A DNA stretch of 64,000 nt, taken from contig NZ_JAQNDL010000002.1 in the NCBI RefSeq assembly GCF_028368995.1, positions 1,440,001-1,504,000 of the forward strand, given 5' to 3'. Both the position numbers and the translations under genes were made by a program. Positions 9,472 to 61,890 of the stretch are shown piece by piece (the stretch's first letter is position 1; each line of letters starts with the position of its first letter). This stretch comes from Nannocystis bainbridge (GTDB lineage Bacteria; Myxococcota_A; Polyangia; Nannocystales; Nannocystaceae). Below the pieces are notes generated by a model. It did no database searches. It had not been told where the DNA came from and saw only the letters and a program-made list of their open reading frames with translations.

Positions 9472-9550
9472 GCGCATGTCCGAGGGGGCATGTCCTCGCG
9501 GGCATGCTCCTCGGGACATGTTCTCGAGGGCATGCGCGAAGCGACATGGC
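9472..9550. repeat. 14-bp-period array of the TGTCC-N4-GGACA-like element (intergenic)
   Basis: CATG at 9475, 9489, 9503, 9517, 9531, 9545. Confidence 0.9.
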
Positions 9551-9628
9551 CTCGTTCGTACGTGAACGAAGGCCATGGACTGCTGCGGGGCGCAGGAGGC
9601 TCGCCGCGCGCTGCCCGCGTCGGCCGGC

Positions 9629-11014
9629 TCAGGGCGTCAGCTCGATCGCCAACACGTCACCGAAACCCTTGGCATAGACCAGGCGGTCCTTGCAGGCGGA
9701 CCCGAGGGACATGTTCTGCAGGAAGCCCGGCTGGGTCAGCAGGCGGCCGGGCGTGGCGGCGGCCTCGAGGCGGGCGGCGAGGTTGACCGTCTCGCCGATG
9801 ACGGTGTGCTCGAGGCGGGCGGGCGAGCCCATGTTGCCGTGGATCAGCGGGCCTGCGGCGACGCCGATCCGCAGCTCGAGCGGGTCGCCGCCCTCGGCCG
9901 CGATGCCGGCGTTGCAGGCCGGCAGCTCGGCCAGCATCGCCAGGCCGCAGCGCACGGCCGCGACCGCCAGCTCGGCGACCGGCTGCAGGCCGCGCGGGTC
10001 GATGAAGACGACCATGATGCCGTCGCCGAGCCGCTTGTCGATGATGCCGCCGTGGGCGAGGATGACGGCGTCCATGTGCTCGAAGTAGCGGTTGAGCTGG
10101 CGGACGACCGCGCCGGGCCCGAGCTCGCTGCAGCGGCGCGTGAAGTCCTTGAGGTCGGCGAACAGCACCGCGCCCTCGGTCACCCGCCCGCCGACCCGCA
10201 CCTCCTCCTCGGGGTTGATGCGGATGGCCTCGATGACGTGCGCCGGCAGGTAGTGGGCGAGCTTGCGCTGGGTCAGCTCGGCGTCGCGGCGCTCGAGCGC
10301 GGAGGCGTCGAGGCGGCGCAGCAGGTCGGGCAGGGTCGCGCGCACGTAGGCCCGCAGGCGCTGCAGCTCGGCGGCAGGGTCGTCGATGACCCGCTCGTCG
10401 TAGTAGATGTCGTAGGCGCAGTGGCGCACGCCCGGGTCGAGGTGGATGCACTCGCGGTGCTCGACCCGCGCCGGCGGCAGGCTCCAGATGGTCGGGATGG
10501 CCTCGAAGAAGCCGCGGCGGCTCCAGCAGGCGCCCGGGCGATCGGCGATCTCGTGCTCCATCACCGCGCGCACGCGGGCGACCCCGAACCGGCGATCGAC
10601 GAGCTGCATGCGGGTGATGCGGTTGCCGCGGGTGTACATGCGCTCGATGTCGCCGAAGAACTCGCCGGGGCCCTGCATCGCCCACAGCAGCAGCCACATC
10701 GGGCCCATGTCCTGGCGCTGCATCATCGCCGCCGAGGCGTCGCGCCAGTGGTTCCACAGCGGGTGATCGTAGGCCGGGGAGCTGTCGAGGCCGCACAGGT
10801 GACGGGCGGCGGAGTCGCACAGGCGGCGGTCGAACTCGACGGAGGTCCACCGCTCCGGGTCTTGCAGGTACTCGCGGCTGAGGCCCGCGCCCTCGACGAT
10901 CCGGTCGGCGACTTCTTCGCCGAAGCGCTCGCAGAAGTAGTGGACCAGCGTGAGCGCGAAGCGGTTGCTCAGGTGCGCCTTCGTCAACGCGGGGTCGTAG
11001 ACGCGCTCCGGCAC
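9629..11014 (-). CDS. Class III adenylate/guanylate cyclase with N-terminal sensor (V4R/H-NOX-like) domain
   Basis: VLFADLKDFT, DKRLGDG, LRIGV, HTVIGETVNLAARLE. Confidence 0.88.
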   Translation of the reverse strand: MPERVYDPALTKAHLSNRFALTLVHYFCERFGEEVADRIVEGAGLSREYLQDPERWTSVEFDRRLCDSAARHLCGLDSSPAYDHPLWNHWRDASAAMMQRQDMGPMWLLLWAMQGPGEFFGDIERMYTRGNRITRMQLVDRRFGVARVRAVMEHEIADRPGACWSRRGFFEAIPTIWSLPPARVEHRECIHLDPGVRHCAYDIYYDERVIDDPAAELQRLRAYVRATLPDLLRRLDASALERRDAELTQRKLAHYLPAHVIEAIRINPEEEVRVGGRVTEGAVLFADLKDFTRRCSELGPGAVVRQLNRYFEHMDAVILAHGGIIDKRLGDGIMVVFIDPRGLQPVAELAVAAVRCGLAMLAELPACNAGIAAEGGDPLELRIGVAAGPLIHGNMGSPARLEHTVIGETVNLAARLEAAATPGRLLTQPGFLQNMSLGSACKDRLVYAKGFGDVLAIELTP

Positions 11015-11126
11015 GCGACCCAGAGTACCGCGCCGTCGCGGCGCTGGCGAGGCTGGGCCCGCTGCAGGCGGCGCCGACGGCGAGCTGTCCCCGGGGACAT
11101 GTGCGTACTCGCCCTGAATGTGGGCG

Positions 11127-12983
11127 TCAGGGGTTCTGCGCGGTCACCCAGGCGCCGATGAAGCCCTCGGGTGGGACGCCGCAGTTGGTGCCCGCGTAGT
11201 TGGGGCCGTTGAAGCCGACGCGGAACACGACGCCCGCAGGGTTGACGAGCTTGACGCGGTAGGAGCGACCCGCGATGTAGGTCTTCTCCTTGGCGAAGGC
11301 GAGGGTGACGAGGAAGCGCTTCGACGCGCCGGCGTTGACCTGGGCGAACGCGCTGCCGGCGGCCGGACCGAGCACGCCGTTTGCGGGGAACGAGAACGGG
11401 TTGGCGGTGAGGTGCACGTACTGGTCGCCGACGCTGAACTCGGCGCCGCCGCTGTCCTGGTAGATCTTGGCGGACGAGACGTCGAAGGCGCTGCCGCCAC
11501 CCATGGTCTCGAGCGTGAGCGGGATCTTGTCGAGCCGCAGGGCGTCGCCGGTGTTGTTGGCGACGGTGAAGGCGAGGGTGGCGACCTCGCGGAAATCGAC
11601 GCCGTCGGGCGGCAGGAACCGCTTGTCGACCGGTGGGTCGTCGGTCTGGGTGAACACGACGCCGGCGTTGCAACTACCGCCCTTGGTGACGCCGCAGTTG
11701 CTAAGCGCGTTGAGCTCGCAGGTCTTGCTCGGGTTGCAGAACCATTGCTGGCAGCCCTGGAACACCCCGCACTCGCTGTTCACGGCGCACGGCATGAACA
11801 GCGGGCAGCGCTGGCCGGTGGCGGGATCGGCGGGCGCGGAGATGCAGGCTGCCTGCGGCGCGACGCACAGGCCGGCCTCGCACTCGCCAGTCAGGCAGTC
11901 GGCGTCGATCTGGCAGTCGTCGCCAGCCTGGCACTTGGGACAGGTAGGGCCGCCGCAGTCGACGTCGGTCTCCTGGCCGTTCTCGAGGCCGTCGTTGCAT
12001 TTCGGCGGCTGGCAGACCTGGCCGGTGCACACGCCGCTCGAGCAGTCGGCGCCGGTCTGGCAGCTTTCGCCGTCCTGGCACTTGGGACAGGTGGGGCCGC
12101 CGCAGTCGACGTCGGTCTCCTGGCCGTTGAGCTTGGCGTCGCCGCAGTTCGGGCTCTGACAGAGCTGGAGGGTGCAGACCTGGCTCTGGCAGTCGAGGTC
12201 GTCGTCGCAGCCGTCGCCGGCGCCGCACGGCGGGCAATCACCGCCGCAGTCGACGTCGGACTCGCTGCCGTTGGCGACCCCGTCGTCGCAGGCGGCGGCC
12301 TGACAGACCTGGCCGGTGCACACGCCGCTGGCGCAGTCGCCGTCGTCCTCACAGTCGCTATCGGGGGCGCACGGCGAGCACACCGGGCCGCCGCAGTCGA
12401 GGTCGGTCTCCATGCCGTTTTTGGCCCCGTCGTCGCAGGTCGGCGGGACGCAGTGCTGGGCGACGCAGAGCTGTCCCATGGGACAGTCGAGGGCCACGAG
12501 GCAGTCGACGCAGGTGCCCTCGCCGTCGCACACGCCGGCCGCACAGGTGGCGCCGGGTGGGAGGGAAACTTCGTCGCACACGCCGAGCTCGCAGGCGGGC
12601 GCGTGGCACTCGGAGGCCTCGTCAGGGCAGTCCGAGGCGTCCTGGCAGCCGCCCGGACCGGTGGTCGAGGTGGTGTCGAGCGTGGTGTCGCCGGAGGTCG
12701 TGTCGGAAGTGGTGGCGGTGCCGTCGGTGGCCGGGCCGGTCGTGGAGGTCGTGGTCTCGCCGCCGGTGGTCGGCGTGACGGTGTCGCTGGAGGTGCCGCT
12801 CAGCGAGTCCGAGGCGCCGGTGGCCGGGTCGGCGGCGTTGCTGGTCGTCGGGACATGTCCGGAAGTGCTGGTCGTCGTGGTGCCGGTGCCGCTCGCGGTG
12901 CCGCCGTCGGTGGAGGTGGAAGTGGCGTCGCCACAGGCGACGAGGAGGGCGAGGACGAGGGCAGGAGAGAGCCGGGGCGACAT
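11127..12983 (-). CDS. Cys-rich lipoprotein with Thr stalk and four (E)TDVDCGG repeats
   Basis: Lipobox LVAC; repeats of CxDGxxNGxE(T/S)D(V/L)DCGG; 147-bp internal duplication (11931 vs 12078). Confidence 0.8.
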   Translation of the reverse strand: MSPRLSPALVLALLVACGDATSTSTDGGTASGTGTTTTSTSGHVPTTSNAADPATGASDSLSGTSSDTVTPTTGGETTTSTTGPATDGTATTSDTTSGDTTLDTTSTTGPGGCQDASDCPDEASECHAPACELGVCDEVSLPPGATCAAGVCDGEGTCVDCLVALDCPMGQLCVAQHCVPPTCDDGAKNGMETDLDCGGPVCSPCAPDSDCEDDGDCASGVCTGQVCQAAACDDGVANGSESDVDCGGDCPPCGAGDGCDDDLDCQSQVCTLQLCQSPNCGDAKLNGQETDVDCGGPTCPKCQDGESCQTGADCSSGVCTGQVCQPPKCNDGLENGQETDVDCGGPTCPKCQAGDDCQIDADCLTGECEAGLCVAPQAACISAPADPATGQRCPLFMPCAVNSECGVFQGCQQWFCNPSKTCELNALSNCGVTKGGSCNAGVVFTQTDDPPVDKRFLPPDGVDFREVATLAFTVANNTGDALRLDKIPLTLETMGGGSAFDVSSAKIYQDSGGAEFSVGDQYVHLTANPFSFPANGVLGPAAGSAFAQVNAGASKRFLVTLAFAKEKTYIAGRSYRVKLVNPAGVVFRVGFNGPNYAGTNCGVPPEGFIGAWVTAQNP

Positions 12984-13612
12984 CGAGGTTCGACGCTACT
13001 GCCTGGACCCGCGGCCGCGGAGACCCGCGCATTTGTCCTGCATCACGCGCGGCGGCCCCGCGCCGATACGCGCCCACCCGCGCCCGCGCGCCGGGGTCGC
13101 GGCGGGGCGCGATCGTGCTCGCATCGGGCTGTCCTTCGGGACATGTCCGCGGCGGCGTGAGATCGACCGCGCGCGGCGGGGGAGGTCCGGATGGCCTTCA
13201 GGACATGTCGTGGCGGACAGCATGCGGAAGGGTCCCGGGGTCGGGCCGCGGCTGGCGTGGCGCATCGAGACCTGGACACAGAGACTCGCGGCAGTCCGTG
13301 GAATTTCCGAGGTGCGCCGGAGCCGCGAGCGCTCGCGGCCTTTCTGCGAGATGTCCTTCGGGACAGCCTCGAGGGCCGACCGGCGAGGGGCGCGAAACAT
13401 CGCGGCGGACGCGCGGGACCTCGCTCGGACCACGATCGAGATCGGCTCCCCGTCGCCGACGTCGCTCGAGCTCTCACGTCGTGCGAGCGTGTGTGCGTCA
13501 CGCATGTCGGCGGTCGACGCGTGGCGCTCTCGCATGTCGGCGCTCGCGCGACCCGCCGAGCTCACGAGGATGCGCGCCGATCGGCGCCGGCGTCCTCGAT
13601 GGTGGGCCGACG

Positions 13613-14301: not shown

Positions 14302-15237
14302 TCAGCTGTCCTTCGGGACATCCGGCTCGCTGGCTCGGCCGGCGCGCGCGCGCGCCTTGGCCTCGTCCCACCAGCCGTCGAGGCGCTCGAGACCCGCGGC
14401 CTCGGGCTCGATGCCGGCGGCGTGGCAGCGCTCCATCACGAAGGCGAAGCGCGACTCGAACTTGGCGCAGGTGGCCCGCAGCGCGTCCTCGGCGGCGATG
14501 CCGAGCTTCTGGCCGTAGCGGACCAGGACGAACAGCAGGTCGCCGAACTCCTCCTCGATCGCCTTGGGCTCACCCTCGGCCCGCGCTCGCTCGAGCTCTT
14601 CCCACTCCTCGCGGATCTTGTCGACCGGGCCCTGGATGGTCGGCCAGTCGAAGCCGACGGCGGCGGCCTTGTCCTGCAGCCGCCACGCGCGCTGCAGCGC
14701 CGGCAACGAGCGGGGGACGCCGGCGAGCGGTCGAGCCGGGCCGCGTTCTGTCCCTTCGGACATGTTCTCGGCGCGCTTGAGCTGGGCCCACTGGCGCGCG
14801 ACGTCGTCGGCGTCGAGCGGCGCATCATCCGCGGAGCCGGCCGCGGGCGCGAACACGTGCGGGTGGCGACGGATCATTTTGTCGCGGATGGCCGCGATCA
14901 CGCCCTCGAGATCGAAGGCGCCTTCGCGCTCGCGCAGGGCCGACTGGAAGACGATCTGGAACAGGAGATCGCCGAGCTCGCGGCGGTGCGCCTCGGGGTC
15001 GTCCAGAGCGTCGAGGACCTCGTAGGCCTCTTCGATGAGGTAGGGCCGCAGGGTGTCGAGGGTCTGGGCGCGGTCCCATGGGCAGCCGCCCGGGTCGGCG
15101 AGCAGCCGGTCCATGAGGTCGCGCAGGCCGGCGAGGCCGTCGCGTAGGCCGTGGGCGCGGTGACCCTGCGCAGCGGGCTCGTCCGCGCCCGTCGGTGCGT
15201 CCGCCTTTGCCTCCGAAGAGTCGCGTGGTAGCTTCAC
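14302..15237 (-). CDS. mazG: Nucleoside triphosphate pyrophosphohydrolase MazG
   Basis: GGCPWDRAQT, EEAYE, ELGDLLFQ, KMIRRHPHVF, GFDW, EEFGDLLF. Confidence 0.93.
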   Translation of the reverse strand: MKLPRDSSEAKADAPTGADEPAAQGHRAHGLRDGLAGLRDLMDRLLADPGGCPWDRAQTLDTLRPYLIEEAYEVLDALDDPEAHRRELGDLLFQIVFQSALREREGAFDLEGVIAAIRDKMIRRHPHVFAPAAGSADDAPLDADDVARQWAQLKRAENMSEGTERGPARPLAGVPRSLPALQRAWRLQDKAAAVGFDWPTIQGPVDKIREEWEELERARAEGEPKAIEEEFGDLLFVLVRYGQKLGIAAEDALRATCAKFESRFAFVMERCHAAGIEPEAAGLERLDGWWDEAKARARAGRASEPDVPKDS

Positions 15238-16568: not shown

Positions 16569-16786
16569 CCGCGGCTGCCCCTCGCAGCCCGCGGCGCGAA
16601 TGACCGGTCCGCGGCTGCCCCTCGCAGCCCGCGGCGCGAATGACCGGCCCGCGGGGCTGCCCCTCGCAGCCCGCGGCGCGAATGACCGGCCCGCAGCGCG
16701 AACGACCGGTCCGCGGCGAACGAGCTGCCCGCGGCGTGGACGACCGGTCCGCGGCGAGTGAGCTGTCCGCGGCGAGGACGACCGGC
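16569..16786. repeat. Tandem 40-bp GC-rich repeat (3 copies) decaying into ~19-20 bp CCGCGGCG...GACCGG units
   Basis: CCGCGGCTGCCCCTCGCAGCCCGCGGCGCGAATGACCGG at 16569, 16609 and ~16649. Confidence 0.8.
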
Positions 16787-26204: not shown

Positions 26205-27697
26205 GCCGCGTACGCAGGCAAGGGCCGGGCGCGCCGGGGCAGGGTGATGTGAGCGGCGACGAGGCGATCGGCGAGGACGATTTCGCCGCGGAGGACGACG
26301 CGGACGACGATGACGATTTCGCCGCGGAAGACGACGCGGACGATTTCGCCGCGGAGGATGACGCGGACGACGATGACGATTTCGCCGCGGAGGATGACGC
26401 GGACGACGATGACGATTTCGCCGCGGACGACGACGCGGACGACGGCGTGACGGACGCAGAGGAAGACGATGCGCTCGGTGACGAGCAGGGCGACGACGTG
26501 CCGGACGCGGAGGAAGACGACACGCTCGACGACGACGTGACGGATGCCGAGGAAGACGACGCGCTCGAGGATGACACGAGCGACTTGAACGACGCGGAAG
26601 ACGAAGACACGCTCGACGACGACGCGACGGACGCAGAGGAAGACGACGCGCTCGAGGAAGACGTGGGCGACGACGCGGAAGATGAAGACGCCCTCGAAGA
26701 CGACGCGAGCGACGCAGAGGAAGACGACGCGCTCGACGACGACGCGAGCGCCATGGACGAAGGTGACGCTGACGCCGATGTGAGCGACGCGGAGGAAGAC
26801 GACGAGAGCGACGATGTGGGCGACGCGGACGAGGATGACGCGATGGACGAGGACGCCGGCGTCGCAGCGAGTGACGCTCATGAGGTGGCGGGCGACGCGG
26901 ACGACGCGATGGACGAAGACGCGGGTGTCGACGATGAGATCGACGCTGACGACGACGAGCTCGCTGACGACGACGAGCTCGCTGACGACGACGCGTATGA
27001 GTCCGACGATGACGACGCGCACGGCCTCCCCGGTCTCGACGCTTTTGAAAACATGTCCCTCGCGCCAGGTCGCAGCCGGATCCGCTTCACCGTCGCGCCG
27101 CGGCGCAAGGCCCCGCGGTGGTTCGTGCAGGCGCTCGCGCGGCGGGTCGCTCGCGCCGCGCGGCGGCTCGGGATCGGCGGCGACGCGGCGGTGACCTGCC
27201 ACCTCGTCGACGACCCTGCGATCGCCCGGCTCAACGCCGAGCACATGGGCAAGGTCGGCCCGACCGACGTGCTGTCGTTCCCGGCCGGGCCGCTCGGGCC
27301 GGGCGAGGGGGCAGGGACCGCGGGCGACATCGTGATCAGCGTCGACGCCGTACGACGCCAGGCGCGGGCCCGGCTCGGGATCTCGGACAGGTCCGAGAGG
27401 ACAGGTGTCAAGCGCCAGGTCCTCTGGGGCCTGGTCATCGAGACCGGGCCGAAAGAGCCTGTCCTTCCGGACATGGTCGAAGGGTCTGCCGAGGCAGCGG
27501 CGGCGATCGACGAGGCGACCGTGCTCGCCGTCCACGGCCTGTGCCACCTGCTCGGCCACGACCACGGCGGGCGCGGGGAGGCGCGGGCGATGCACCGGGC
27601 CGAGCGGCGCGCGCTCAAAGCGGCCGCCACGCCCGACGTGCCGCGGCCCTACGGCATCGACGCGCGCCGCCAGCGGCGCGAGAGGAGGGCGCGGTGA
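26201..27697 (+). CDS. ybeY: rRNA maturation RNase YbeY with Asp-rich N-terminal extension and internal insertion
   Basis: PTDVLSFP, GDIVIS, HGLCHLLGHDH; GTG at 26201 overlaps the upstream TGA; alternative ATG at 27053. Confidence 0.8.
   Translation: MSRVRRQGPGAPGQGDVSGDEAIGEDDFAAEDDADDDDDFAAEDDADDFAAEDDADDDDDFAAEDDADDDDDFAADDDADDGVTDAEEDDALGDEQGDDVPDAEEDDTLDDDVTDAEEDDALEDDTSDLNDAEDEDTLDDDATDAEEDDALEEDVGDDAEDEDALEDDASDAEEDDALDDDASAMDEGDADADVSDAEEDDESDDVGDADEDDAMDEDAGVAASDAHEVAGDADDAMDEDAGVDDEIDADDDELADDDELADDDAYESDDDDAHGLPGLDAFENMSLAPGRSRIRFTVAPRRKAPRWFVQALARRVARAARRLGIGGDAAVTCHLVDDPAIARLNAEHMGKVGPTDVLSFPAGPLGPGEGAGTAGDIVISVDAVRRQARARLGISDRSERTGVKRQVLWGLVIETGPKEPVLPDMVEGSAEAAAAIDEATVLAVHGLCHLLGHDHGGRGEARAMHRAERRALKAAATPDVPRPYGIDARRQRRERRAR
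27385..27490. repeat. 14-bp-period array inside ybeY
   Basis: CAGG 27388, 27402, 27416; CCTG 27430; CCGG 27444; CCTG 27458; CATG 27472; perfect TGTCCttccGGACA at 27460-27473. Confidence 0.8.
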
Positions 27698-28740: not shown

Positions 28741-30141
28741 GTGCTTCGCTGCGCGCTGATCGTCGCCCTGGCCGCACCGCCGGCCGCCGCCGGTCAGGGC
28801 GCGTCGCCGGTCGCCTGGGGCCCGCTGCCGGGGCAGGGGGCGCCGGCCGGCGAAGGTGTGAAGGGACAGGCCCCTTCGGACATGTCGCCCGAGACAGGTT
28901 CTTCGGGACATGTCGAAACGGACAGTCCCGTGGCCGCCGGGCCCGAACCTGCGCCCGCGCCGGTCGAGCCGCTGGGTCCGACTGGTCCAGCGCCGTCGCT
29001 GGTCCCGCCGCCCGAGCCCGGCGAGGCGACGCTCGAGCTGTCCGGCGCGGGGCAGGGCGGGCAGGTCGTCGTGACCTCCCCGCGCGGCAAGCTGCTCGGC
29101 GCCTACGCCGTCGGCCCCGGGCAGACGATCCTGCTGCGCGGGGCGCCCGGCGAGTATGTGGTGCGCAGCCCGGACGCGCCGCACGGGTTGGTGGTGCCGG
29201 TGGTCGAGCGCACGCACGTGCAGATCGGGCCGTCGGGGCTCGCGGTGGTGCGTGACGAGGGCCCGACGCCAGGGCCCGTGGTGCGGATCGGGCGGACCGC
29301 GGCCGCGCGCGACGGCAACTGGCGCCGACCGGTCTCGCCGATCCTGTCCGCGCTGGTGCCGGGCCTCGGGCAGATGGTCAACCGCGAGTACGCGCGCGGG
29401 GCCGGGTTCTTGCTCGGGGCCGTGTCGCTCGGCGCGGGCGCTCTCGGGCTCGCGCTCACCCGCGACCGGTCCGACGCCGCGACCGCGGGCGCCCACGGCC
29501 GCACGTTCGCCGCCGACGTGGTCGGTGCGGCCGGGCTCGGGCTTTTGACCGGCGGGCTGCACCTCCTCTACATGGCGCAGGTGATGGACGCCTACGCCGG
29601 CGCGATCGGCAAGCGCTCGCCGCGGCCGCACAGCCGCCACAAGGTCTCGCTCGAGCTGCGCCGCATGGCGACCGTGGGCATGCGCGCCGGCGATCCGGCC
29701 GCGCAGCTGTACGCCGACTGGAACGTCGGCGTGCTCGGTCAGGTCGCGCCGCGCCTGAGCGTCGGCCTGACCGACCTCGGCCTCAAGTTCGGCCCCGGGC
29801 GCGCGGCGCTGCAGGGCGGGCCGCGGCTGCAGTACCGCGTGCTCGAGCGCGGCCGCGTGTGGCTGTCGCTGGCCGCCGGCGCGATCGTCCAGGGCGCGTT
29901 CGCCAGCGGCTCGCCGCCGGTCGTGCCCGAGGGCGACAAGCAGCCGCGCACGGCGGTGGTCGCCGCCGTGCCGTACGGCCAGCTCGACCTGCGGCTGTTC
30001 ATCCTCGATCGCTGGTCGATCGACATCGTCCCGCGGATCAGCGCCCCGCTCGGCGCCGCCCGCTACTACCGGGGCGACGGCGCGATCCCCAAGCAAGCGG
30101 TCACGCTCGAGCTCGGCACCGGCGTGGGGGTGTATTTCTAA
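28741..30141 (+). CDS. Secreted/outer-membrane hypothetical protein
   Basis: Signal peptide, SALVPGLGQ motif, beta-strand-like C-terminus ending in VYF. Confidence 0.65.
   Translation: MLRCALIVALAAPPAAAGQGASPVAWGPLPGQGAPAGEGVKGQAPSDMSPETGSSGHVETDSPVAAGPEPAPAPVEPLGPTGPAPSLVPPPEPGEATLELSGAGQGGQVVVTSPRGKLLGAYAVGPGQTILLRGAPGEYVVRSPDAPHGLVVPVVERTHVQIGPSGLAVVRDEGPTPGPVVRIGRTAAARDGNWRRPVSPILSALVPGLGQMVNREYARGAGFLLGAVSLGAGALGLALTRDRSDAATAGAHGRTFAADVVGAAGLGLLTGGLHLLYMAQVMDAYAGAIGKRSPRPHSRHKVSLELRRMATVGMRAGDPAAQLYADWNVGVLGQVAPRLSVGLTDLGLKFGPGRAALQGGPRLQYRVLERGRVWLSLAAGAIVQGAFASGSPPVVPEGDKQPRTAVVAAVPYGQLDLRLFILDRWSIDIVPRISAPLGAARYYRGDGAIPKQAVTLELGTGVGVYF
28864..28927. repeat. 14-bp-period array inside a CDS linker
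   Basis: CAGG 28867, CATG 28881, CAGG 28895, CATG 28909, CAGT 28923. Confidence 0.8.
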
Positions 30142-32064: not shown

Positions 32065-32158
32065 GAGCATGTTCAATAGGACATGCTCTCATGAGCATGT
32101 CCTTCGAGTCATGTCCCAAGGATAATGATCTTTCGAGCATGTTCGAGAGGACATGCCT
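32065..32158. repeat. 14-bp-period array (intergenic, between convergent genes)
   Basis: CATG 32068, 32082, 32096, 32110, AATG 32124, CATG 32138, 32152. Confidence 0.9.
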
Positions 32159-36697: not shown

Positions 36698-36749
36698 GGA
36701 CATGTCCGTCAGCACATGTCCGTCAGAGCATGTCCCGCAGCACATGCCC
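36698..36749. repeat. 14-bp-period array (intergenic, between convergent genes)
   Basis: CATG 36701, 36715, 36729, 36743. Confidence 0.85.
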
Positions 36750-36760
36750 TGCAGGCCAGC

Positions 36761-42596: not shown

Positions 42597-45500
42597 GTGA
42601 GCGACCATCGACCTGGCGAAGGGGACATGTCCCCGAACGCAGGTCCGATCGGACCTGGCCCCGAGGACATGTCCTCGAAGGCAGGCCCGCAGGTCAGCGG
42701 TCGAGCCAGCCTCAGCGACCTCGCGCTCGACCGCCCGGTGATGATCGGGATGCTGCTGCTGGCGATCCTGGTCCTCGGCGCGATCGCCACCGCCCGCCTG
42801 CCGCTGGCGTTCCTGCCGGCCGGCGGGACCGCGCGCGTGTCGCTGCGCATCAACCTCCAGCGCACCAGCCCGGAGCTGGTCGAGCGCGAGATCATCCGCC
42901 CGGTCGAGGAGGCGATGGCCGGGCTGCGCGGGCTGCAGCGGATCCAGGTCGGCAGCGGCGGCTGGGGCGTGCGCGTCAACCTCGAGTTCGTCGCCGGCAC
43001 CGACATCGCGGCGCGCAAGGCCGAGATCCGCGAGCGCTTCGACCGCATCCGCGGGACCCTGCCGGACGCGATCACGCGGGTCACGCTCGACTCGTGGGGC
43101 CGCTCCGACGACGCGGTGGTCAAGCTGCGCCTCGCCAGCGACAGCGACCTGACGCGCTCGTACGACCTGATCGAGCGCTACGTGGTGCGGCCGATCGAGC
43201 GCATCCCGGGGGTCTCGCGGGTCGAGCTCGAGGGCGTCGAGCCGCGCGAGCTCGAGGTGGCGCTCGACCTCGAGGCCCTGCGCCGCGCCGGTGTGTCGGC
43301 CCAGGCCGTCAGCACCGCCGTGCGCGAGGCCAGGCAGGGCCGCAGCCTCGGCGTCCTGCGCGAGGACGCGACCCAGCCCGGCGTGCGCGCGCCGCCGATC
43401 GACGCCGACCCGCAAGCGTTCGCGGCCCTGCCGGTGGCCCGCAGCCGCGGGGCCGCGGCGTCGACGACCTCCGCGGCCACCACGGCGCCGCGCACGACCG
43501 CGACGCCTGCCTCTTCGGGCATGTCCTCGGGGACAGCTTCCGCCGGGACCACGCCAGCGGTCTCGGCCACCGCGCCCCTGACGGCCCAGGGCCCGCAAGG
43601 CGTCGGCGCGCGCAGCAACACCGCCAGCGTCGGCCCGGGCGTCTACACCAGCACGCCGATCGGGTCCGGGGTCGCGCCGGCCACGGCGGCGGCGGCCGGG
43701 CAGACCAGCGCGGCCGTGCCGGCGCGGGTCGGCGAGGTCGCGCGGGTCGAGGTCCACCCGCGAGAGAACCGCAACTTCCGCAGCCTCGACGGCCGCCTCG
43801 GCGTCGACCTCTCGGTCTACGCCGACGCCGGGGCCAGCCCGGTCGACGTCGCCCAAGCCGTCAACGGGGTGGTCGAGGAGCTGCAAGCCAGCCCGCGGCT
43901 CGGCGGCATCTCGGCGGTCGTCTACCACGACCAGGGCAAGATCATCCTCAAGACGCTGGCCGACCTGCGCGACACCGGCATCTACGGCGGCGTGCTCGGG
44001 GTGGCCATGCTGTGGCTGTTCCTGCGCCGCTGGGGCGTGACGATGGTGGCCGCGCTGTGCATCCCGCTGACGATCCTGGCGACCTGCGGGGTCCTGCTGA
44101 TCCGCGGCGAGGAGCTCAACTGCATCGTCCTGCTCGGCCTCGTGCTCGGCGTCGGCATGCTGGTCGACAACGCGGTCGTCATCACCGAGGCGATCGAGCT
44201 CCAGGCCCAGCGCGGGCTGCCGGCGCGCCTGGCGGTGCGGGCCGGCGGGCGCGAGGTCGGCCTGGCGACCGTGGCGTCGACGCTGTCGAGCGTGATCGTG
44301 TTCCTGCCGCTGGTGTTCGGCGACCCGGCCAACCCGATGAGCGCGCTGCTGGCCCCGCTCGGCCTGACCTTCGCCACGGTCCTTTTGTGCAGCCTGTTCG
44401 TCAGCCAGACGCTGGTGCCGCTGATCATGCCGACGGTGCTGCGGCGCGGCGGGGTGGCCGAAGGGACAGGTCGCGGCGGACGCCTGCTCGGCCCGCTGAT
44501 CGCCGGCTACGGGCGCCTGATCGCGTTCACGCTGCGGTTCCGCCGGACCGCGCTGGTGCTCGGCCTCGGCCTCGCGGCCAGCGCCGTCATCCCGGTCCGG
44601 CTGCTGGGCTACAACCTCACCGACATCGACCCGAAGCCCGACTGGGTCGAGGTCAGCATGCAGTTCGTCGGCAGCCCCGGCTACAAGGAGATCGGCGAGC
44701 GCGTGCGCGTGGTCGAGGAGGCGATCCTGGCCAAGAAGGACGCGCTCCAGGTCACCCACGTGTCGTGCGCCTACTCCGACTTCTGGGGCCGCTGCGACGT
44801 CCACCCGATCGCCCGCGCCGCCTCCGAGGCCGACGTCGAGGCGTTCACCACCACCGTCAAGCAGGCGCTGCCCGAGCAGCCGGGCGTGCGCTACCTGGTC
44901 GGCGAGAACAACCGCGGGCACATGCGCGGCAACTCCGATCGCCACGAGGTCGAGCTGGCGATCAAGGGCGAGGACATGGGCGTGCTCATGGACCTGTCCG
45001 AAAGGGCAGCTTCGCACCTGCGCGCGACGCTGCCGCGCGGCAGCGCCGACAACCCCGAGTCGGGCGGCGTCGACACCGTGATCGGCCCCTACGACGAGGG
45101 CTCGCGCGAGCTCCACGTCCGCCTCGACGGCGCCCTGCTGCGCCGCTACGGCCTGCGCGCCGACGACGTCGCGCGCCTGATCCAGACCGCGTTCCAGGGC
45201 ACGCCGCTCGGCCAGGTGCGCAGCCCCGAGGGGCAGATCGAGCTGCGCCTGTCGGCCGGCAACGCCAGCGGCAGGGCAGGGGACGGGCCGACGCTCGAGC
45301 AGCTGCGCGACCTGCCGATCCCGCTGGCCGACGGCGGCGAGGTCACCGTCGGCAGCATCGCCTCGCTCGAGCCGACGCGCAGCCCGTTCTACATCCAGCG
45401 GCTCGACCGCGAGACCCAGGTCAAGGTCAAGGCCCGCTTCTTCACCCCCGACCCGGAGAAGAACCGCGCCGCCGTCAACAAGGCGATGGAGAGCTTCGTG

Positions 45501-47044: not shown

Positions 47045-47208
47045 TGGCATGTCCCGAAGGCCATGCTCTTCGGGACATGTACTGCAGGACATGAGCATTG
47101 CGCCATGCCCTGAAGCACATGCGTTCGAGGCCATGCTCCCGAGAACATGTGCATCGAGACATGTCCATGAGGACATGGCCTGATGGCCATGCCCTGAGGG
47201 ACATGCCA
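47045..47208. repeat. 14-bp-period array with 12 junctions (intergenic, between convergent genes)
   Basis: CATG at 47048, 47062, 47076, 47090, 47104, 47118, 47132, 47146, 47160, 47174, 47188, 47202. Confidence 0.95.
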
Positions 47209-47214: not shown

Positions 47215-49125
47215 TCAGTCGCGCGCGCGCGAGCGGGTGAACAGCCCGCCGAGGCCGAGCAGCAGCGACAGCCCGCCCACCGCCAGACCTGTCCCATAGG
47301 CCAGGCGCGAGCGGAGCTCGGCCGCGGCCGTCTCCGGGCGCTCGACGCTGGCGGTCAGGCGCGCCTGCAGCTGCGGGTCTTCGGGCGCCAGCTCGGCCGC
47401 GGTCGCCAGCAGCATGCGCCGGCCGTCCTCGGTGGCGGCCAGGTCGGCCTCGGCCAGCAGCGCCTGGACCCGCAGCGCGTCGGCGCGGCCCGGATCGGCC
47501 TCGTCGAGCAGCGCCGCGCTCTTGCGCCACAGGCGAGCGCCCTGCGCCAGATCGCCGGCGGCGGCGGCCTCGCTGGCGGCCTGCTCGTAGGTCGGCACCA
47601 GCTCGGCGCGGGCGCTGAGCTGCGGATCGTCGGCGAGCAGGCGATCGAGGATCGCGATCGCGGCCGCGCGATCGGGCTCGCCGAGCGCCGCCGCGATCTC
47701 GGCCCGCTCGCGCTCGCGGCGGCCGTCGTCGAGCCGCTCGAAATACGCCCGCGCCAGCCGCTCCGGCTGGGCCTCGCACACCCCGGCGAACACGCTGTCC
47801 TTCGGCGCCGAGCGGCAGTCGGGTTCGGCCAGCTCGGGCTGATGGCTGGCGATCCGACTCATGATCGCGATCCGGGCCAGGTCGCGGTACGTCAGCTGCG
47901 CCGCCGACTCGCCGGTGCCGCCGCCGACGAAGCGCAGCAGCTTGCGCTCGGCCCGCGGCGCCGGCCCGGTCACGAACGCCAGGAACGCCTCGCGCGCGGC
48001 CTCACGCACCCGCGGGATCGCGGCGTCGACGAAATCGAGCAGCGGCCCGGCCGCGTCGCCCGGGCGGACCACGGCGTAGGCCGCGATCAGATCGGCGAGC
48101 CGCGCCGGATCGTCGCCGACCGCCTGCAGCGCCTTGCGCGGGTGGGCCCGGTCCATGCGGTCGACCTGGTAGCCGGCGTACTCCGCCGTGCGATAGGCGA
48201 CCGAGTCCTTCACCACCTGCGCCTCGCCCTCGTCGGCGGGCAGGGGCGGGCGGACCGAGCGCCGCAGCAGCCCGGGCAGCGCCGGATCGCCGAGGCGGCG
48301 GATCGCTCGCCCGACCTCGTCGCGGAACGTGCTCTCGTGCAGGTACGCGGCCGCCAGCAGCGCCTCGACGACCTCGTCGGTGTGCGCCGGCACGGCCCCG
48401 ATCGAGGCCGCCGCGCGCAGCAGCGCCGCCTGGATCACGCAGTCGCGGTAGATCGGCCGCAGCACCTTCGACACCTGGCGCGACGGCAGGGCCAGCAGGT
48501 CGGTGAACCAGTCCTCCGACAGCTTGATCCCTTGGTGGCCGTGGGCCTTCTTCCACGCCAGCTCGAAGTGCCCGTAGCGGTTCGGCACGTCGCCGCCGAT
48601 CACAGCCAGCAGCGCTTTGTAGTCGGCCTTGCGGGCGCTGCGCGGCGCCAGCAGCTCGGCCCGGACCGCCGGCCACAGCTCCGGGGGCGCCGCCGCCAGC
48701 GCTCGCGCCAGCGGCCCGAGGTCGCGGTGCGGCCCGTCGCGCATCGCCGCGATCAGCCCCGCGAGCTCGTCCGCGGCCGTCGGCGGCGCGACCGGCTGGC
48801 CTTCGATACCTGGCGCATCGACCCTGTCGGAAGGTTCCTGTTCTTCGGGACCTGTCCCTTCGGACTCGCGCGGCGGCCCGGTCTTGGCCTTGGCCTTGCG
48901 CTTCGCCGGGCGGGCGGGCTCGGCGTCGTCGGCGGGCAGCTCCGCGACCGCGGCGTCGAGCTCGCGGTCGCCCAGGGCCGCGGCCTGGGCGAACCAGAGC
49001 TCGTAGCGGTCGGCCCAGGCCTGGGCCTGCAGCGTGTCGGCCGACGAGCGGGTCAGGACCACGACCTGCGGCTCACCGGCGCAGGCGGCGACCAGGGTCG
49101 AAAGGAGCAGGGCGCGCCGTGGCAT
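47215..49125 (-). CDS. Helical-repeat (HEAT/TPR-like) lipoprotein with C-terminal TM helix
   Basis: Lipobox VAAC; Ala/Leu-rich helices; hydrophobic C-terminus. Confidence 0.65.
   Translation of the reverse strand: MPRRALLLSTLVAACAGEPQVVVLTRSSADTLQAQAWADRYELWFAQAAALGDRELDAAVAELPADDAEPARPAKRKAKAKTGPPRESEGTGPEEQEPSDRVDAPGIEGQPVAPPTAADELAGLIAAMRDGPHRDLGPLARALAAAPPELWPAVRAELLAPRSARKADYKALLAVIGGDVPNRYGHFELAWKKAHGHQGIKLSEDWFTDLLALPSRQVSKVLRPIYRDCVIQAALLRAAASIGAVPAHTDEVVEALLAAAYLHESTFRDEVGRAIRRLGDPALPGLLRRSVRPPLPADEGEAQVVKDSVAYRTAEYAGYQVDRMDRAHPRKALQAVGDDPARLADLIAAYAVVRPGDAAGPLLDFVDAAIPRVREAAREAFLAFVTGPAPRAERKLLRFVGGGTGESAAQLTYRDLARIAIMSRIASHQPELAEPDCRSAPKDSVFAGVCEAQPERLARAYFERLDDGRRERERAEIAAALGEPDRAAAIAILDRLLADDPQLSARAELVPTYEQAASEAAAAGDLAQGARLWRKSAALLDEADPGRADALRVQALLAEADLAATEDGRRMLLATAAELAPEDPQLQARLTASVERPETAAAELRSRLAYGTGLAVGGLSLLLGLGGLFTRSRARD
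48792..48866. repeat. 14-bp-period array inside a CDS linker
   Basis: GCTG 48795, CCTG 48809, 48823, 48837, 48851. Confidence 0.75.
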
Positions 49126-55915: not shown

Positions 55916-55936
55916 GCCGGCCTCGCCGCTTCGACG

Positions 55937-58403: not shown

Positions 58404-59156
58404 TCAGGTGCCGGTCAGCGGCGTGATCTGGTGGCGCAGCGCCACGATCTCGGCCCGCACCTGCTCCTTGAGCGCCTGCAGGTCGTCGAGCGTCAGGCCG
58501 CGGGTCGAGATCGGGGTCCCGACGGCCACAAAGGCGCGCGCCTGGCCGAAGCGCCAGTCGTGCTTGCGCAGCGCCGCGGCGGTGCCGGCGACCGCCACCG
58601 GCAGGATGTCGGCGCCGGTCTCGATCGCCAGGTGGAAGGCGCCGTCCTTGAACGGCCCCATCTCGTCGCCGAGCGCGCGCGTGCCCTCGGGGAAGATCAT
58701 CACCGGCGTGTCGCGCATCAAGTACCGCCGGCACCGCGCCATCGCCCCCTTGGCCGAGCCGCGGTCGCCTCGCACGACCGGGATGTCGCCGGCGAGGAAC
58801 ATCGCCCAGCCGAGGATCGGCACCTTGAACAGCGACGCCTTGCCGAGCCACTTCATCTCCCACGGCAGATGCGAGATGAGGAACGGGTCGGTCTGCGAGC
58901 AGTGATTGCTGACGACGACGGTGCGCCGCGGCCGGTACGGCGGCAGCGGCCGGAGCACGCGGAAGTCCCACAGCGGATTGAACTTGGTGACGCCGATCGC
59001 CGCCAGGCGGAACAGCCGCCCGGTGACCCTTCGACCATGGTCGAAAGGCCAGGTCAGCGGCACGAGCACGCATTGCAGGCAGAACGCGAGGCCGCCGAGC
59101 CCGAAGATGAGCAAGTATGTCCAAACGGACAGGATGATCGTGCGCGAAGCGGACAT
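58404..59156 (-). CDS. Lysophospholipid (1-acyl-G3P) acyltransferase, PlsC family
   Basis: NHCSQTD (NHxxxxD), IFPEGTR, FKDGAF. Confidence 0.9.
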   Translation of the reverse strand: MSASRTIILSVWTYLLIFGLGGLAFCLQCVLVPLTWPFDHGRRVTGRLFRLAAIGVTKFNPLWDFRVLRPLPPYRPRRTVVVSNHCSQTDPFLISHLPWEMKWLGKASLFKVPILGWAMFLAGDIPVVRGDRGSAKGAMARCRRYLMRDTPVMIFPEGTRALGDEMGPFKDGAFHLAIETGADILPVAVAGTAAALRKHDWRFGQARAFVAVGTPISTRGLTLDDLQALKEQVRAEIVALRHQITPLTGT

Positions 59157-59797: not shown

Positions 59798-59803
59798 TCG
59801 GCC

Positions 59804-60202: not shown

Positions 60203-60296
60203 CGCCGATCACTTTAGCCGAGACCGCGGACGGATCCACCGCGCCCGGCCCACATCGGCCCCGCGATGTGATGCCGCCCGGCTGCCTGACGCTACG

Positions 60297-61253
60297 TCAC
60301 CGGTCGGGGCGCGCACGCCCGTCGAGACCTGTTTGGGCGTACAGCAATTCGAGCGAGAACAGCACGGCGGCCACCCACAACGCCGTACCGAGGCCGAGGT
60401 GCAGGACCTGCATCCAGCCGGGGGCGGACAACATCACATTGAGGACGCCCGCCGCCAGCTGAGCGAACACCAGGATCATCACCCACGCGCTCGCGCGACG
60501 GACGGCCGGCGCCGCGGTGTTGCCGAGGTGATGGGCGATCACCGCGGTGAAGAAACCGAGGCCGCAGGCGAGCACCGGGTGCATCAGTCGCAGGCGCTGG
60601 AGGAAGTGCGCGCCGGCCCCGAGGTCGCGCTGCAATCGTTCGGCCAACGCGCCGGCCTCGACGGGGTAGAGCGTGTCGCCGAGGGCCGTGACGGCCCCGC
60701 TGAGGCCGACGAGCACCAGCCCCCCGAGGCTGGCACCGAGCAGCCAGCGGACACGACGGGACGCGCCGCTCCGCGTGACCGCGCCGGGATCGCGGCCCGC
60801 GGCCCACGCCGTCAGCGCGATCGCGCCGGTGAGCAGCGAGGTGTTGAGGAGGTGCGCGGCCATGACGACGGCGCGCGCGACCGAGTCGTTGTGGCCGACC
60901 AGACCGAAGCGCACCAGCCCGGCGCCGATCAGCGCCTCGGTGATCGTGAAAACCAGCGCCAGCCAGGCCCCGACCCGCGCCGTGTGCCCGCGCGGGAAGC
61001 CCCGCAGCGCCGCGATCAGCAGGGCGAGCACGATGATGCCGCACAGCCCCGAGGTGACGCGGTGCGAGAACTCGATGATCGTCTCGATCGTGGGGCTGAT
61101 CGGCACGATCTCGCCGTGACAGGTCGGCCAGTGCTGCCCGCAGCCCGCGCCGGAGCCGGTGATCCGCACCACCGCGCCGAACAGGATCACGAGGACGGTG
61201 TACGCGAGAGTGCCCCAGGCGAGGCTGCGAAAGCGTGCGCGAGCGGCGGCCAC
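60297..61253 (-). CDS. COX15/CtaA heme A synthase family protein
   Basis: GAVVRITGSGAGCGQHWPTC, EFSHR, EALIG, AHL, LHL. Confidence 0.85.
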   Translation of the reverse strand: MAAARARFRSLAWGTLAYTVLVILFGAVVRITGSGAGCGQHWPTCHGEIVPISPTIETIIEFSHRVTSGLCGIIVLALLIAALRGFPRGHTARVGAWLALVFTITEALIGAGLVRFGLVGHNDSVARAVVMAAHLLNTSLLTGAIALTAWAAGRDPGAVTRSGASRRVRWLLGASLGGLVLVGLSGAVTALGDTLYPVEAGALAERLQRDLGAGAHFLQRLRLMHPVLACGLGFFTAVIAHHLGNTAAPAVRRASAWVMILVFAQLAAGVLNVMLSAPGWMQVLHLGLGTALWVAAVLFSLELLYAQTGLDGRARPDR

Positions 61254-61545
61254 GGGCCCTCCATACTCGCTTTTTCCGGCGCCGAAAAGCCCTGCGACGG
61301 GCTGCCACGGCCCGCAGCACGTGCGCTGGGCGACGCGACGTCAGCTCGGCCGGCCGCGCCGGCGCCGCCTCGACCGCACACCGGAGCGTCGCCACGTGCG
61401 CACGCAGACGGGCGCGGCTGCCTCGCACGACGCGAGCTCGCCGCAGCCGCGACGCGAGTTCGCCGCGGCCCCGACGCGCGATGACTCCAGCACGCCCCAG
61501 CCGCCGCCTGCTCGATGGCGCGTGCCTCGAGACGGTAGCTCGGGT

Positions 61546-61890
61546 CTGCATGTACTCCTGAACATGCCTCGCGGGACATGCTCATACAGACATAAACAAA
61601 TCGTCATGTCCAAAGGGCCATGACCAGATGTACATGGCCGATCGATCAGATACATATGTCTGATACAACATGCCCGATAGACCATGCCCAAAGGGACATG
61701 TCCTCTAAAACATCATCGCATGCCCTATGCGACATGCCCGATCGAACATGGCTATATGGACATGTCCTCTAGAACATCCTCGCATGTCCGATGCGACATG
61801 CCCGATCGACCATGCTCACATGGACATGTCCTATGGAACATTCTCGCATGTCCGATGCGACATGCCCGATCGACCATGTCCTCTCGAACT
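61546..61890. repeat. Longest 14-bp-period array, with a 64-bp higher-order repeat; locally AT-richer
   Basis: CAT(G) at 61549, 61563, 61577, 61591, 61605, 61619, 61633; then blocks starting at 61655, 61719, 61783, 61847 (14+14+14+22). Confidence 0.92.

What the first reader, a model, noticed from the sequence alone, without database searches (positions are those of the whole stretch)
9472..61890. Window-wide 14-bp palindromic element TGTCC-N4-GGACA that forms strictly phased arrays: candidate undescribed chromosome-wide DNA-site system
Seen: perfect TGTCC-N4-GGACA copies at 11086, 12472, 13130, 13352, 14307, 14749, 27460, 43522, 47162 and 59118, plus many 1-2 mismatch copies (e.g. 6949, 24946, 27054, 33294, 34082, 40323, 41877, 44995, 47290, 48853, 49746, 59038). 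My rough estimate, assuming ~72% GC and independent bases, is ~0.05 perfect copies expected in 64 kb. Units also abut head-to-tail, giving GGACA|TGTCC junctions (CATG/CAGG/CCTG) exactly every 14 bp in about 12 arrays. The central N4 and arms vary while phase and junction persist, unlike slippage tandem repeats. In genes the sites often use codons that are rare here (ACA, GGA, TGT, CAT), suggesting selection on the DNA. Inference: sites for an abundant dimeric protein that binds cooperatively (functionally like matS, SlmA-SBS, Noc-NBS or parS; parS is also a TGT...ACA palindrome with a 4-bp core), or a HIP1/uptake-like signal. I do not know of a description of this element.
Basis: partly seen in the sequence, partly recalled or inferred. 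Interest (0 to 1): 0.9.

Follow-up and report, generated by a model that had tools for sequence, protein, structure and literature searches.

The report
Genus-wide 14-bp palindromic repeat arrays
A short DNA palindrome, TGTCC-N4-GGACA, is scattered thousands of times through Nannocystis genomes, mostly as head-to-tail arrays just after gene ends; it looks like an undescribed relative of bacterial REP-type repeats, and its function is still unknown.

Summary
The window has 10 perfect TGTCC-N4-GGACA copies against 0.1 expected. The genome has 1987 against about 13 expected, plus 4258 one-mismatch copies. CATG pairs 14 bp apart number 3736 against a background of about 80-100.

The element is not confined to any part of the chromosome, unlike matS, SBS, NBS or parS. 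It lies on all contigs and is concentrated at gene 3' ends: 56% of convergent intergenic regions carry a unit (4.8/kb, against 0.6/kb divergent and 0.27/kb coding).

It is limited to Nannocystis: the 20-mer form was found in 0 of 400 other genomes of the phylum. No RAYT gene was found.

The arms and the exact 4-bp spacing are constrained; N4 is free. Coding DNA holds 771 perfect copies against about 20 in codon shuffles. One array of about 38 codons sits in-frame inside ybeY.

Best reading (about 0.4): duplex sites of a dimeric protein that form REP/BIME-like arrays at gene ends. RNA-hairpin, selfish-element and uptake-signal readings remain open. No description was found in print.

The parts
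9477..9532 (.). Array of 4 phased units (9477, 9491, 9505, 9519) with CATG junctions. It starts 8 bp after the stop of gene 8027-9469(+), in a convergent intergenic region.
11086..11099 (.). Perfect single unit in an intergenic region between two minus-strand genes.
12472..12485 (.). Perfect unit inside the Cys-rich repeat gene 11127-12983(-). It is conserved in 2 of 3 relatives; the third has 1 mismatch.
13130..13365 (.). Intergenic block with perfect units at 13130 and 13352 and a 2-unit array at 13192-13219. It did not align to the three relatives.
14307..14320 (.). Perfect unit that forms the last codons (DVPKDS) of the MazG-like gene 14302-15237(-). This C-terminal tail is absent from the more distant genomes aligned.
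14749..14762 (.). Perfect unit in the inter-domain linker of the MazG-like gene (ENMSEGT). Other genera have a linker of nearly the same length without the motif, so there is no block insertion here.
27381..27490 (.). In-frame array of about 8 phased units (CAGG/CCTG/CATG junctions; a 1-mismatch unit at 27390 and a perfect unit at 27460). It lies inside the YbeY domain of gene 26249-27697(+) and adds about 38 residues.
28869..28924 (.). Array of 4 phased units in a tandem intergenic region.
30145..30201 (.). Two 2-unit arrays separated by a 1-bp phase slip (30159->30174).
32070..32153 (.). Phased units at 32070, 32098 and 32140 in a convergent intergenic region.
33252..33307 (.). Phased units (33252, 33266, 33294) inside the DUF4401/GDYXXLXY gene 32201-33817(-).
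36703..36758 (.). Array of 4 phased units that fills most of a 92-bp convergent intergenic region.
39250..39361 (.). 8-unit array with CAGG junctions, read as the C-terminal tail of the HlyD-like ORF 38088-39392(+), just before the RND pump gene.
42614..42683 (.). 5-unit array between two RND pump genes.
43522..43535 (.). Perfect unit inside RND gene 42669-46088(+). The arms are identical in 3 relatives; N4 differs by one base.
47050..47203 (.). 11-unit array that fills the convergent intergenic region after the PAS/STAS gene. An orthologous array is present in 5 other Nannocystis species (4-7 CATG junctions there against 12 in phase here).
48839..48866 (.). 2 phased units inside gene 47215-49125(-).
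59118..59131 (.). Perfect single unit in a tandem intergenic region.
61551..61890 (.). Composite array of about 340 bp with 14-bp and 22-bp steps and a 64-bp higher-order repeat.

Best explanation
The window shows a Nannocystis-specific family of interspersed short palindromic repeats. The unit is 14 bp, TG-y-CC-N4-GG-r-CA. Neighbouring units abut, so their ends form CATG (less often CAGG or CCTG) every 14 bp.

Shown: the family is real and abundant. It lives mainly in the DNA just after genes. It persists at the same loci across species while unit number and sequence turn over. Its two arms at an exact 4-bp spacing are constrained while N4 is free. It also sits inside genes, against codon preference, once as an in-frame block.

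Inferred (about 0.4): each unit is the duplex-DNA site of a sequence-specific homodimeric protein, with half-site centres 9 bp apart. Arrays allow side-by-side, probably cooperative, occupancy. The resulting nucleoprotein blocks at gene ends act as boundaries for transcription or supercoiling, in the way E. coli BIME arrays engage gyrase and IHF. How units arise and spread is not known.
For: Abundance: 1987 perfect copies against 12.8 expected from arm 5-mer frequencies.

Rigid geometry: TGTCC-N3-GGACA 16, N4 1987, N5 5. The reversed arrangement is enriched only at N0 (956, against 11-18 at N1-N4). CATG pairs number 72 at lag 13, 3736 at lag 14 and 262 at lag 15. A hairpin selected only for stability would tolerate 3- or 5-nt loops.

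Sequence rather than pairing is conserved. In 3736 CATG-N10-CATG intervals, chosen without regard to the arms, 667 have all three inner pairs complementary. Shuffling arms between units gives 521-533.

N4 shows no complementarity (observed/expected 0.88) and no dominant tetraloop; the top N4 accounts for 5% of copies.

Constraint: units were ascertained in G000 and scored in three other species. For 79 units in genes, three-way identity is 0.909/0.949 in the arms, 0.80 in N4 and 0.83-0.84 in the flanks. For 38 intergenic units it is 0.74/0.76, 0.45 and 0.59-0.60.

Location: 4.79 units/kb in convergent, 1.78 in tandem, 0.62 in divergent intergenic regions and 0.27 in coding DNA. 56% of 1296 convergent regions hold a unit.

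Locus persistence: relatives have a unit in 107 of 114 orthologous regions where G000 has an array, against 17 of 210 where it has none. The unit count is the same in only 27 of 114.

Precedent for REP arrays as gyrase sites: PMC6379681, passages read.
Against: No binding protein was identified, and no experiment bears on binding.

Mirror positions of the two arms co-vary. Transition odds ratios are 1.68-1.95, against 0.80-1.05 for four unlinked cross-arm pairs. This fits base pairing better than independent half-sites.

Wobble-preserving changes are slightly commoner on the sense strand (892 against 761, summed by me). Arrays fold well as RNA (z -5.9 and -4.3).

Gene 3' ends are also where selfish repeats accumulate, so location alone does not show function.

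A 14-bp step puts successive dimers about 120 degrees apart around the helix (my arithmetic). No known system that I can name does this.

Gene boundaries come from my own codon-based gene caller, not from a curated annotation.
Confidence: 0.4

Rival explanations
1. Transcribed hairpin element. The units act in RNA as 3'-end hairpins that stop or stabilise transcripts from either direction, like REP elements in E. coli mRNAs or lineage-specific terminator motifs.
For: Units are concentrated after stop codons and between convergent genes; the median distance from the upstream stop in tandem regions is 71 bp. My crude scan found a hairpin plus T-run in only 188 of 1244 convergent regions, while 723 of 1244 hold a unit. 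Mirror-pair covariation has odds ratios of 1.68-1.95. There is a slight excess of wobble-preserving changes on the sense strand. Predicted folding is strong.
Against: No T tract follows the units, and the motif is symmetric with respect to transcription direction. The loop length is fixed at 4 with no tetraloop preference. The arms are conserved as sequence, with only 26% more full pairing than shuffled arms. Many tRNA genes here use classical hairpin plus T-run terminators, and in two cases an array follows such a terminator; only 18 of 102 tRNAs have a unit within 150 bp downstream. 771 perfect copies lie inside genes. No RNA data could be obtained.
Confidence: 0.25
2. Selfish non-autonomous repeat (REP/MITE-like) copied by an unidentified enzyme or by replication errors. 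It piles up where it does least harm and has no host function.
For: It is genus-restricted and differs in abundance between lineages: 142 20-mer copies in G000, 56-69 in five large genomes, and 6-22 in four smaller or fragmentary ones. There is a block insertion of about 38 codons in ybeY in one subclade only. Unit numbers turn over fast. It prefers convergent intergenic regions.
Against: No Y1/RAYT transposase was found in a genome rated 90.5% complete. No gene family recurs among the 97 genes flanked by arrays on both sides; the largest cluster has 4 members. N4 of neighbouring units is unrelated (93 of 2784 identical, against 27 shuffled), so arrays are not fresh copies. The arms are more conserved than their surroundings even for single copies inside genes. 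At least one in-gene copy sits in a linker of nearly the same length as in other genera, with no block insertion.
Confidence: 0.2
3. Self-recognition or uptake-type signal (USS/DUS-like), or a HIP1-like product of biased repair. It spreads by molecular drive through point changes and recombination.
For: It has thousands of copies on all contigs without an ori-ter pattern and is genus-specific. It is frequent in genes, in the reading frames that cost the protein least (440/267/64). In-gene copies lie in fast-evolving stretches (flank identity 0.83 against 0.90 expected). A copy lies in a MazG linker with no block insertion.
Against: Uptake signals as I recall them are asymmetric and do not form phased arrays. 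The motif here is a palindrome with a free centre, and arrays of up to 12 units are common. The one D12-class methyltransferase is also present in genera that lack the motif, so it is not a specific partner. The 8 viral contigs with the 20-mer each hold one copy only.
Confidence: 0.1

Closest known systems
REP/BIME elements of enterobacteria and pseudomonads
   Same: Both are short palindromic repeats present in hundreds to thousands of copies, mostly after genes and often clustered. In E. coli, BIME-2 clusters are preferred gyrase cleavage sites (PMC6379681, passages read).
   Different: The unit here is 14 bp (20 bp with flanks), a perfect dyad with a free 4-bp centre. Units abut with no linker. 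No RAYT gene was found. 39% of perfect copies lie in genes. The usual REP size of 20-40 bp, the GTAG head and the alternating orientation in BIMEs are recalled, not tested.
Uptake signal sequences (Neisseria DUS, Pasteurellaceae USS)
   Same: Both are lineage-specific, occur at roughly one per few kb, lie in genes and between them, and often sit at gene ends. In-gene copies sit where the protein tolerates them.
   Different: The motif here is palindromic and forms phased arrays. No uptake bias is known for Nannocystis. The DUS/USS properties are recalled.
HIP1 of cyanobacteria
   Same: Both are highly iterated palindromes found in coding and non-coding DNA, with unknown function.
   Different: HIP1 is a contiguous 8-mer without arrays (recalled). 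Here the palindrome is interrupted, phased and biased to gene 3' ends.
Rickettsia palindromic elements (RPE)
   Same: Both are repeat blocks found inserted in-frame inside protein-coding genes. Here the example is ybeY, where the reading frame is kept.
   Different: RPEs are about 100-150 bp single elements (recalled). Here the block is an array of 14-bp units. Only one clear case was examined.
Tandem operator boxes bound cooperatively (MetJ met-boxes)
   Same: Both are abutting palindromic boxes in fixed phase, each taken by one dimer. This is a model for how the arrays could work.
   Different: Met-boxes are 8 bp, few in number and lie at promoters (recalled). Here there are thousands of units, at gene ends.

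Membership tests
REP/BIME with RAYT | A Y1 (RAYT) transposase gene in the genome, typically flanked by the repeats | tested here: not met
   PF01797 gave 0 matches in G000 (90.5% complete) while the control genomes matched. Among the 97 genes flanked by arrays on both sides, no family recurs.
REP/BIME with RAYT | Extragenic location, mainly after genes | tested here: inconclusive
   There is a strong 3' bias. However, 771 of 1987 perfect copies lie fully inside called genes.
REP/BIME with RAYT | Imperfect palindrome of 20-40 bp with a conserved head, in clusters of alternating orientation (recalled definition) | tested here: not met
   The unit is a 14-bp symmetric dyad. Units abut head to tail without linkers.
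matS / SlmA-SBS / Noc-NBS / parS type chromosome sites | Tens of sites confined to, or excluded from, one chromosome region (recalled definition) | tested here: not met
   There are 6245 copies with at most 1 mismatch. Density is 48-71 per 100 kb on all five contigs with no regional gap.
Intrinsic (Rho-independent) terminators | G+C-rich hairpin followed by a T tract | tested here: not met
   No T enrichment follows 3365 units oriented by transcription. Classical terminators are visible after tRNA genes and look different.
Uptake signal sequences | Preferential uptake of motif-bearing DNA by the competence machinery | not testable with these tools
   Only distribution could be examined.
HIP-type iterated palindromes | Cognate methyltransferase whose site lies in the palindrome (recalled proposal) | tested here: inconclusive
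   One D12-class methyltransferase is present, but it is also in 15 of 18 family genomes searched, including genera without the motif. Its specificity is unknown.
Known RNA families | Match to an Rfam model | tested here: not met
   The only match in the window is tRNA at 31220-31304.

The most novel reading that the evidence does not exclude
Nannocystis has evolved a dedicated protein-DNA array system. A genus-specific dimeric protein coats 14-bp phased palindromes placed after most convergent genes and forms bidirectional roadblocks or supercoil barriers. In effect this replaces classical terminators for protein-coding genes. The same sites have spread into coding DNA, where they are kept by selection.
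Probability: 0.2. Interest if true: 0.85.

Novelty: new variant of a known kind. Interest (0 to 1): 0.62.

Why it matters
Copies with at most one mismatch add up to about 0.8% of an 11-Mb genome (my arithmetic), and they occupy more than half of all convergent gene junctions. The element is therefore a main organising feature of non-coding DNA in this genus.

It combines traits that known repeat families show separately. It has REP-like placement and USS-like presence in genes. It has operator-like rigid geometry with a free centre. It also shows RPE-like in-frame insertion.

If a binding protein exists, it would be a new abundant chromosome protein with a simple, testable site. If the element is RNA-based, it would define how a high-G+C bacterium with few classical terminators ends its transcripts.

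It is also a practical marker. It can flag native versus recently acquired DNA in Nannocystis, and it explains odd insertions in otherwise conserved proteins.

Tried and rejected
RNA evidence: no RNA holder was listed for the window stretch. The listed runs were small-share metagenome contigs.

RAYT: none found.

Associated gene: the 97 genes flanked on both sides by arrays share no family.

Methyltransferase as specific partner: the D12 family is also present in motif-free genera.

Phage carriage: 8 viral contigs hold the 20-mer once each, with no further copies. I take these as chance.

Variants in other genera: 200 kb each of two neighbouring genera showed no enriched interrupted palindrome and no 4-mer periodicity.

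Loop flipping: exact reverse-complement N4 occurred in only 2 of 351 orthologous pairs.

Higher-order palindromes between neighbouring units: not enriched.

Whole-unit length changes: length differences of array-bearing intergenic regions are multiples of 14 in 9 of 104 cases, about chance. A smaller attempt found only 7 arrays and was uninformative.

Order of units relative to classical terminators: 36 before, 32 after, 37 mixed. My terminator scan also hit divergent regions at a similar rate, so it is not specific.

My slips: one search used an out-of-frame reference and found nothing. One search asked for more than 20000 bases and was not repeated. In one search I picked wrong reading frames; redid it.

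Earlier findings of this scan: three look-ups returned nothing.
Full report
OBSERVATION. The window is G000:C3:1440001-1504000 of an 11.05-Mb, 71.5% G+C genome in five contigs. 100 dinucleotide-preserving shuffles gave a mean of 0.10 and never more than 1. Reading the cited stretches shows head-to-tail units with CATG, CAGG or CCTG at each junction. A table of all copies with at most 2 mismatches shows about 13 phased arrays in the window. It also shows a few phase breaks: a 15-bp step at 30159->30174 and 22-bp steps within 61551-61890.

GENOME-WIDE CHECK. The genome holds 1987 perfect copies against 12.8 expected from the frequencies of the two arm 5-mers. Among all 5-N4-5 palindromes only the near-variant TGTCT-N4-AGACA (127 copies) has a higher ratio. 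The reversed arrangement GGACA-N4-TGTCC occurs 13 times. There are 4258 one-mismatch and 7530 two-mismatch copies.
- The spacing is rigid. TGTCC-N3-GGACA occurs 16 times, N4 1987 and N5 5. GGACA-TGTCC is enriched only with no gap (956, against 11-18 for gaps of 1-4).
- CATG pairs peak at 14 bp (3736), 28 bp (2073), 42 bp (1586) and 56 bp (751). The background is about 80-100 away from multiples of three and about 280 at multiples of three. Lags 13 and 15 are at background, and the control tetramers show no such peak.
- Chains of three or more CATG at exact 14-bp steps number 801. Of these, 733 are intergenic and 48 are in called genes.
- The wider consensus is rCa-TGTCC-yyrr-GGACA-tGy.

WHERE IT SITS. 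I called genes with a codon log-odds model trained on long ORFs. This gave 7981 genes covering 83% of the genome. It is my own caller, so boundaries are approximate.
- Units with at most one mismatch occur at 4.79/kb in convergent intergenic regions, and 56% of 1296 such regions have one. The density is 1.78/kb in tandem regions, 0.62/kb in divergent regions and 0.27/kb in genes. In tandem regions the units lie near the upstream stop (median 71 bp).
- The units are on all contigs at 48-71 per 100 kb with no ori-ter pattern. This rules out a matS/SBS/NBS/parS-like regional system.
- No Rfam family matches the arrays.

IN GENES. 771 perfect copies lie wholly in called genes, spread evenly along them.
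- Synonymous-codon shuffles that keep each protein give 15-28, and codon-order shuffles give 3-8. The excess is therefore at the DNA level.
- Reading frames are used 440/267/64. The frame that needs Cys-Pro-x-Gly is the rarest.
- Codon log-odds drop at the copies and recover within about 10-12 codons.

Three window genes show how copies enter genes.
- In the YbeY-like gene, about 38 residues made of about 8 phased units sit between conserved YbeY motifs. The block is present in G000 and in at least three close relatives whose protein I aligned. It is absent from two more distant Nannocystis genomes and from other genera, where the two halves of the match are 6-9 nt apart.
- In the MazG-like gene, the copy at 14749 lies in a linker that is nearly the same length in other genera (ENMSEGT here, ERASEAK or similar elsewhere). 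There is no block insertion. The copy at 14307 is a short C-terminal tail found only in the close relatives.
- The HlyD-like ORF reads through an 8-unit array at its end.

TAXONOMIC RANGE. Record titles of orthologous loci name Nannocystis punicea, exedens, pusilla, radixulma and sp. RBIL2.
- The 20-mer ACATGTCC-N4-GGACATGT occurs 142 times in G000. It occurs 56-69 times in five large same-genus genomes and 6-22 times in four smaller or fragmentary ones. It occurs 0 times in one genome that is 64% complete, 3 times in one neighbouring genus, and 0 times in the 29 other genomes of that search.
- It was found in 0 of 400 further genomes sampled across the phylum. These are samples, so I say 'not found in those searched'.
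- In 200 kb each from two neighbouring genera, no interrupted palindrome or periodic 4-mer stood out. A distant Nannocystis genome had 5 perfect copies in 80 kb, mostly single and flanked CC|TG...CA|GG.

STRUCTURE OR SEQUENCE. In 3736 CATG-N10-CATG intervals, chosen without regard to the arms, the interior reads Y-C-C-N4-G-G-R at 57-77% per position.
- All three inner pairs are complementary in 667 intervals, against 521-533 when arms are shuffled between units.
- Transitions at mirror positions co-occur with odds ratios of 1.68-1.95. Four cross-arm pairs that are not mirrors give 0.80-1.05. Two further pairs, linked through a within-arm subfamily, give 1.38-1.48. There is thus a modest pairing signal on top of a strong sequence signal.
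- N4 shows no complementarity.
- Oriented by transcription, the motif is symmetric to within 0.07 per position, and no T tract follows it.
- Changes that keep a G-U wobble on the sense strand outnumber the mirror changes 892 to 761 (my sum). Strand-biased mutation could give the same small excess.
- Arrays fold strongly as RNA (z -5.9 and -4.3), as any array of palindromes would.

EVOLUTION. I aligned 289 kb of G000 to syntenic DNA of three relatives. Coverage was 85-89% and identity about 90%; the three relatives are 92-94% identical to each other.
- To avoid ascertainment bias, I picked units in G000 and scored three-way identity among the other three species.
- For 79 in-gene units the arms scored 0.909 and 0.949, N4 scored 0.80 and the flanks 0.83-0.84. 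The expectation for the same codon positions elsewhere is about 0.90. The G of TG and the C of CA were identical in all comparisons.
- For 38 intergenic units the arms scored 0.74 and 0.76, N4 scored 0.45 and the flanks 0.59-0.60.
- The arms are therefore held more tightly than their surroundings, and in-gene units sit in fast-evolving stretches. The three species are kin, so the counts are not independent.
- Among 351 orthologous pairs that kept their arms, N4 differed at two or more of four positions in 104. In arrays this may partly reflect alignment of non-orthologous units.
- Neighbouring units have unrelated N4: 93 of 2784 identical, against 27 when shuffled.
- Where G000 has an array, the orthologous region in a relative has a unit in 107 of 114 cases. 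Where G000 has none, the figure is 17 of 210. The unit count matches in only 27 of 114.
- The array after the PAS/STAS gene exists in all six species compared. It has 12 in-phase CATG junctions in the window and 4-7 in the other species, and little shared sequence beyond the phase.

WHAT IT IS NOT.
- No Y1/RAYT transposase was found.
- No gene family recurs next to arrays.
- Many tRNA genes are followed by classical hairpin plus T-run terminators. Only 18 of 102 have a unit within 150 bp downstream, and in two cases the array follows the classical terminator.
- My crude terminator scan found such terminators in only about 15% of convergent regions, but at a similar rate in divergent ones, so it is not specific.
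- A D12 methyltransferase is present but is not specific to the genus.
- Viral contigs carry only single, chance-level copies.
- No usable RNA run was listed.

INTERPRETATION. Firmly shown: this is an abundant, genus-restricted, constrained family of 14-bp palindromic units that forms phased arrays at gene ends and also lives in genes.

For mechanism I favour recognition of duplex DNA by a dimeric protein (about 0.4). The reasons are the rigid N4 spacing with a free centre, conservation of arm sequence rather than pairing, the absence of N3/N5 forms with intact arms, and the constraint on single copies in genes. Arrays would allow side-by-side binding. Their position suggests a boundary role at gene ends, by analogy with BIME arrays that engage gyrase in E. 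coli (PMC6379681, passages read). That role is inference.

The rivals are as follows.
- RNA hairpin (0.25): supported by location, mirror covariation and the scarcity of classical terminators.
- Selfish repeat (0.2): supported by lineage-specific expansion and the ybeY insertion.
- Uptake-like or HIP-like drive (0.1): supported by the pattern in genes.

These readings are partly compatible, because origin by amplification and later host use can both be true.

LITERATURE. Searches for Nannocystis with 'palindromic' or 'repetitive', for the two arm words with 'palindrome' and 'intergenic', and for 'repetitive extragenic palindrom' with 'myxobacteri' found no description.
- The N. exedens genome note mentions only 'complex and large repetitive regions' (passages read).
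- A survey of species-specific repeats considers repeats longer than 85 bp, according to its abstract in the search listing, and mentions only Sorangium among myxobacteria.
- The library lacks most subscription journals.
- Properties of REP, BIME, RAYT, USS/DUS, HIP1, RPE and met-boxes beyond what is cited are recalled from memory.

Noticed in passing
window about 31150; tRNA at 31220-31304: The cumulative G-C skew of contig C3 peaks at C3:1471158, inside the window and next to a tRNA-Leu gene. This may mark the replication terminus or a rearrangement point. Unit density shows nothing special there.
   Followed up: partly
window 26249-27100: The YbeY-like gene carries a long N-terminal extension of about 280 residues made of acidic (Asp/Glu-rich) tandem repeats of 36-99 bp, in addition to the array insertion.
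   Followed up: no
window 5166-5959: There is a 60-bp tandem repeat (4.5 copies), followed by 15/30-bp and 9-bp repeats (about 20 copies) inside or next to gene 5440-6852(-).
   Followed up: no
window 11895-12446: 147-bp tandem repeats (about 3 copies) lie in a Cys-rich gene with no Pfam match (11127-12983, minus strand).
   Followed up: no
window 16569-16789: 20/40-bp tandem repeats (96% matches for the 40-bp form) lie between genes 15280-16353 and 16985-18283. They are unrelated to the 14-bp unit.
   Followed up: no
L080 14523-15213 (N. exedens, orthologous to window about 13100-13600): Six perfect units are spaced 133-144 bp apart. This is a longer tandem repeat in which each copy carries one unit.
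   Followed up: no
genome-wide, downstream of tRNA genes (e.g. C1:20972, C1:362009, C1:1004619): Classical G+C-rich hairpin plus T-run terminators are plainly present after many tRNA genes in this 71.5% G+C genome, but they seem rare after protein-coding genes.
   Followed up: partly
C1 1.1-1.3 Mb and other 100-kb bins: Some 100-kb bins hold only 10-20 units against a mean of about 55. They could be giant biosynthetic genes or recently acquired DNA.
   Followed up: no
window 34082 and orthologues: The centre of one in-gene unit reads TTCG here and CGAA in one relative. This is an exact reverse complement with the arms unchanged. Such flips were rare overall (2 of 351).
   Followed up: yes
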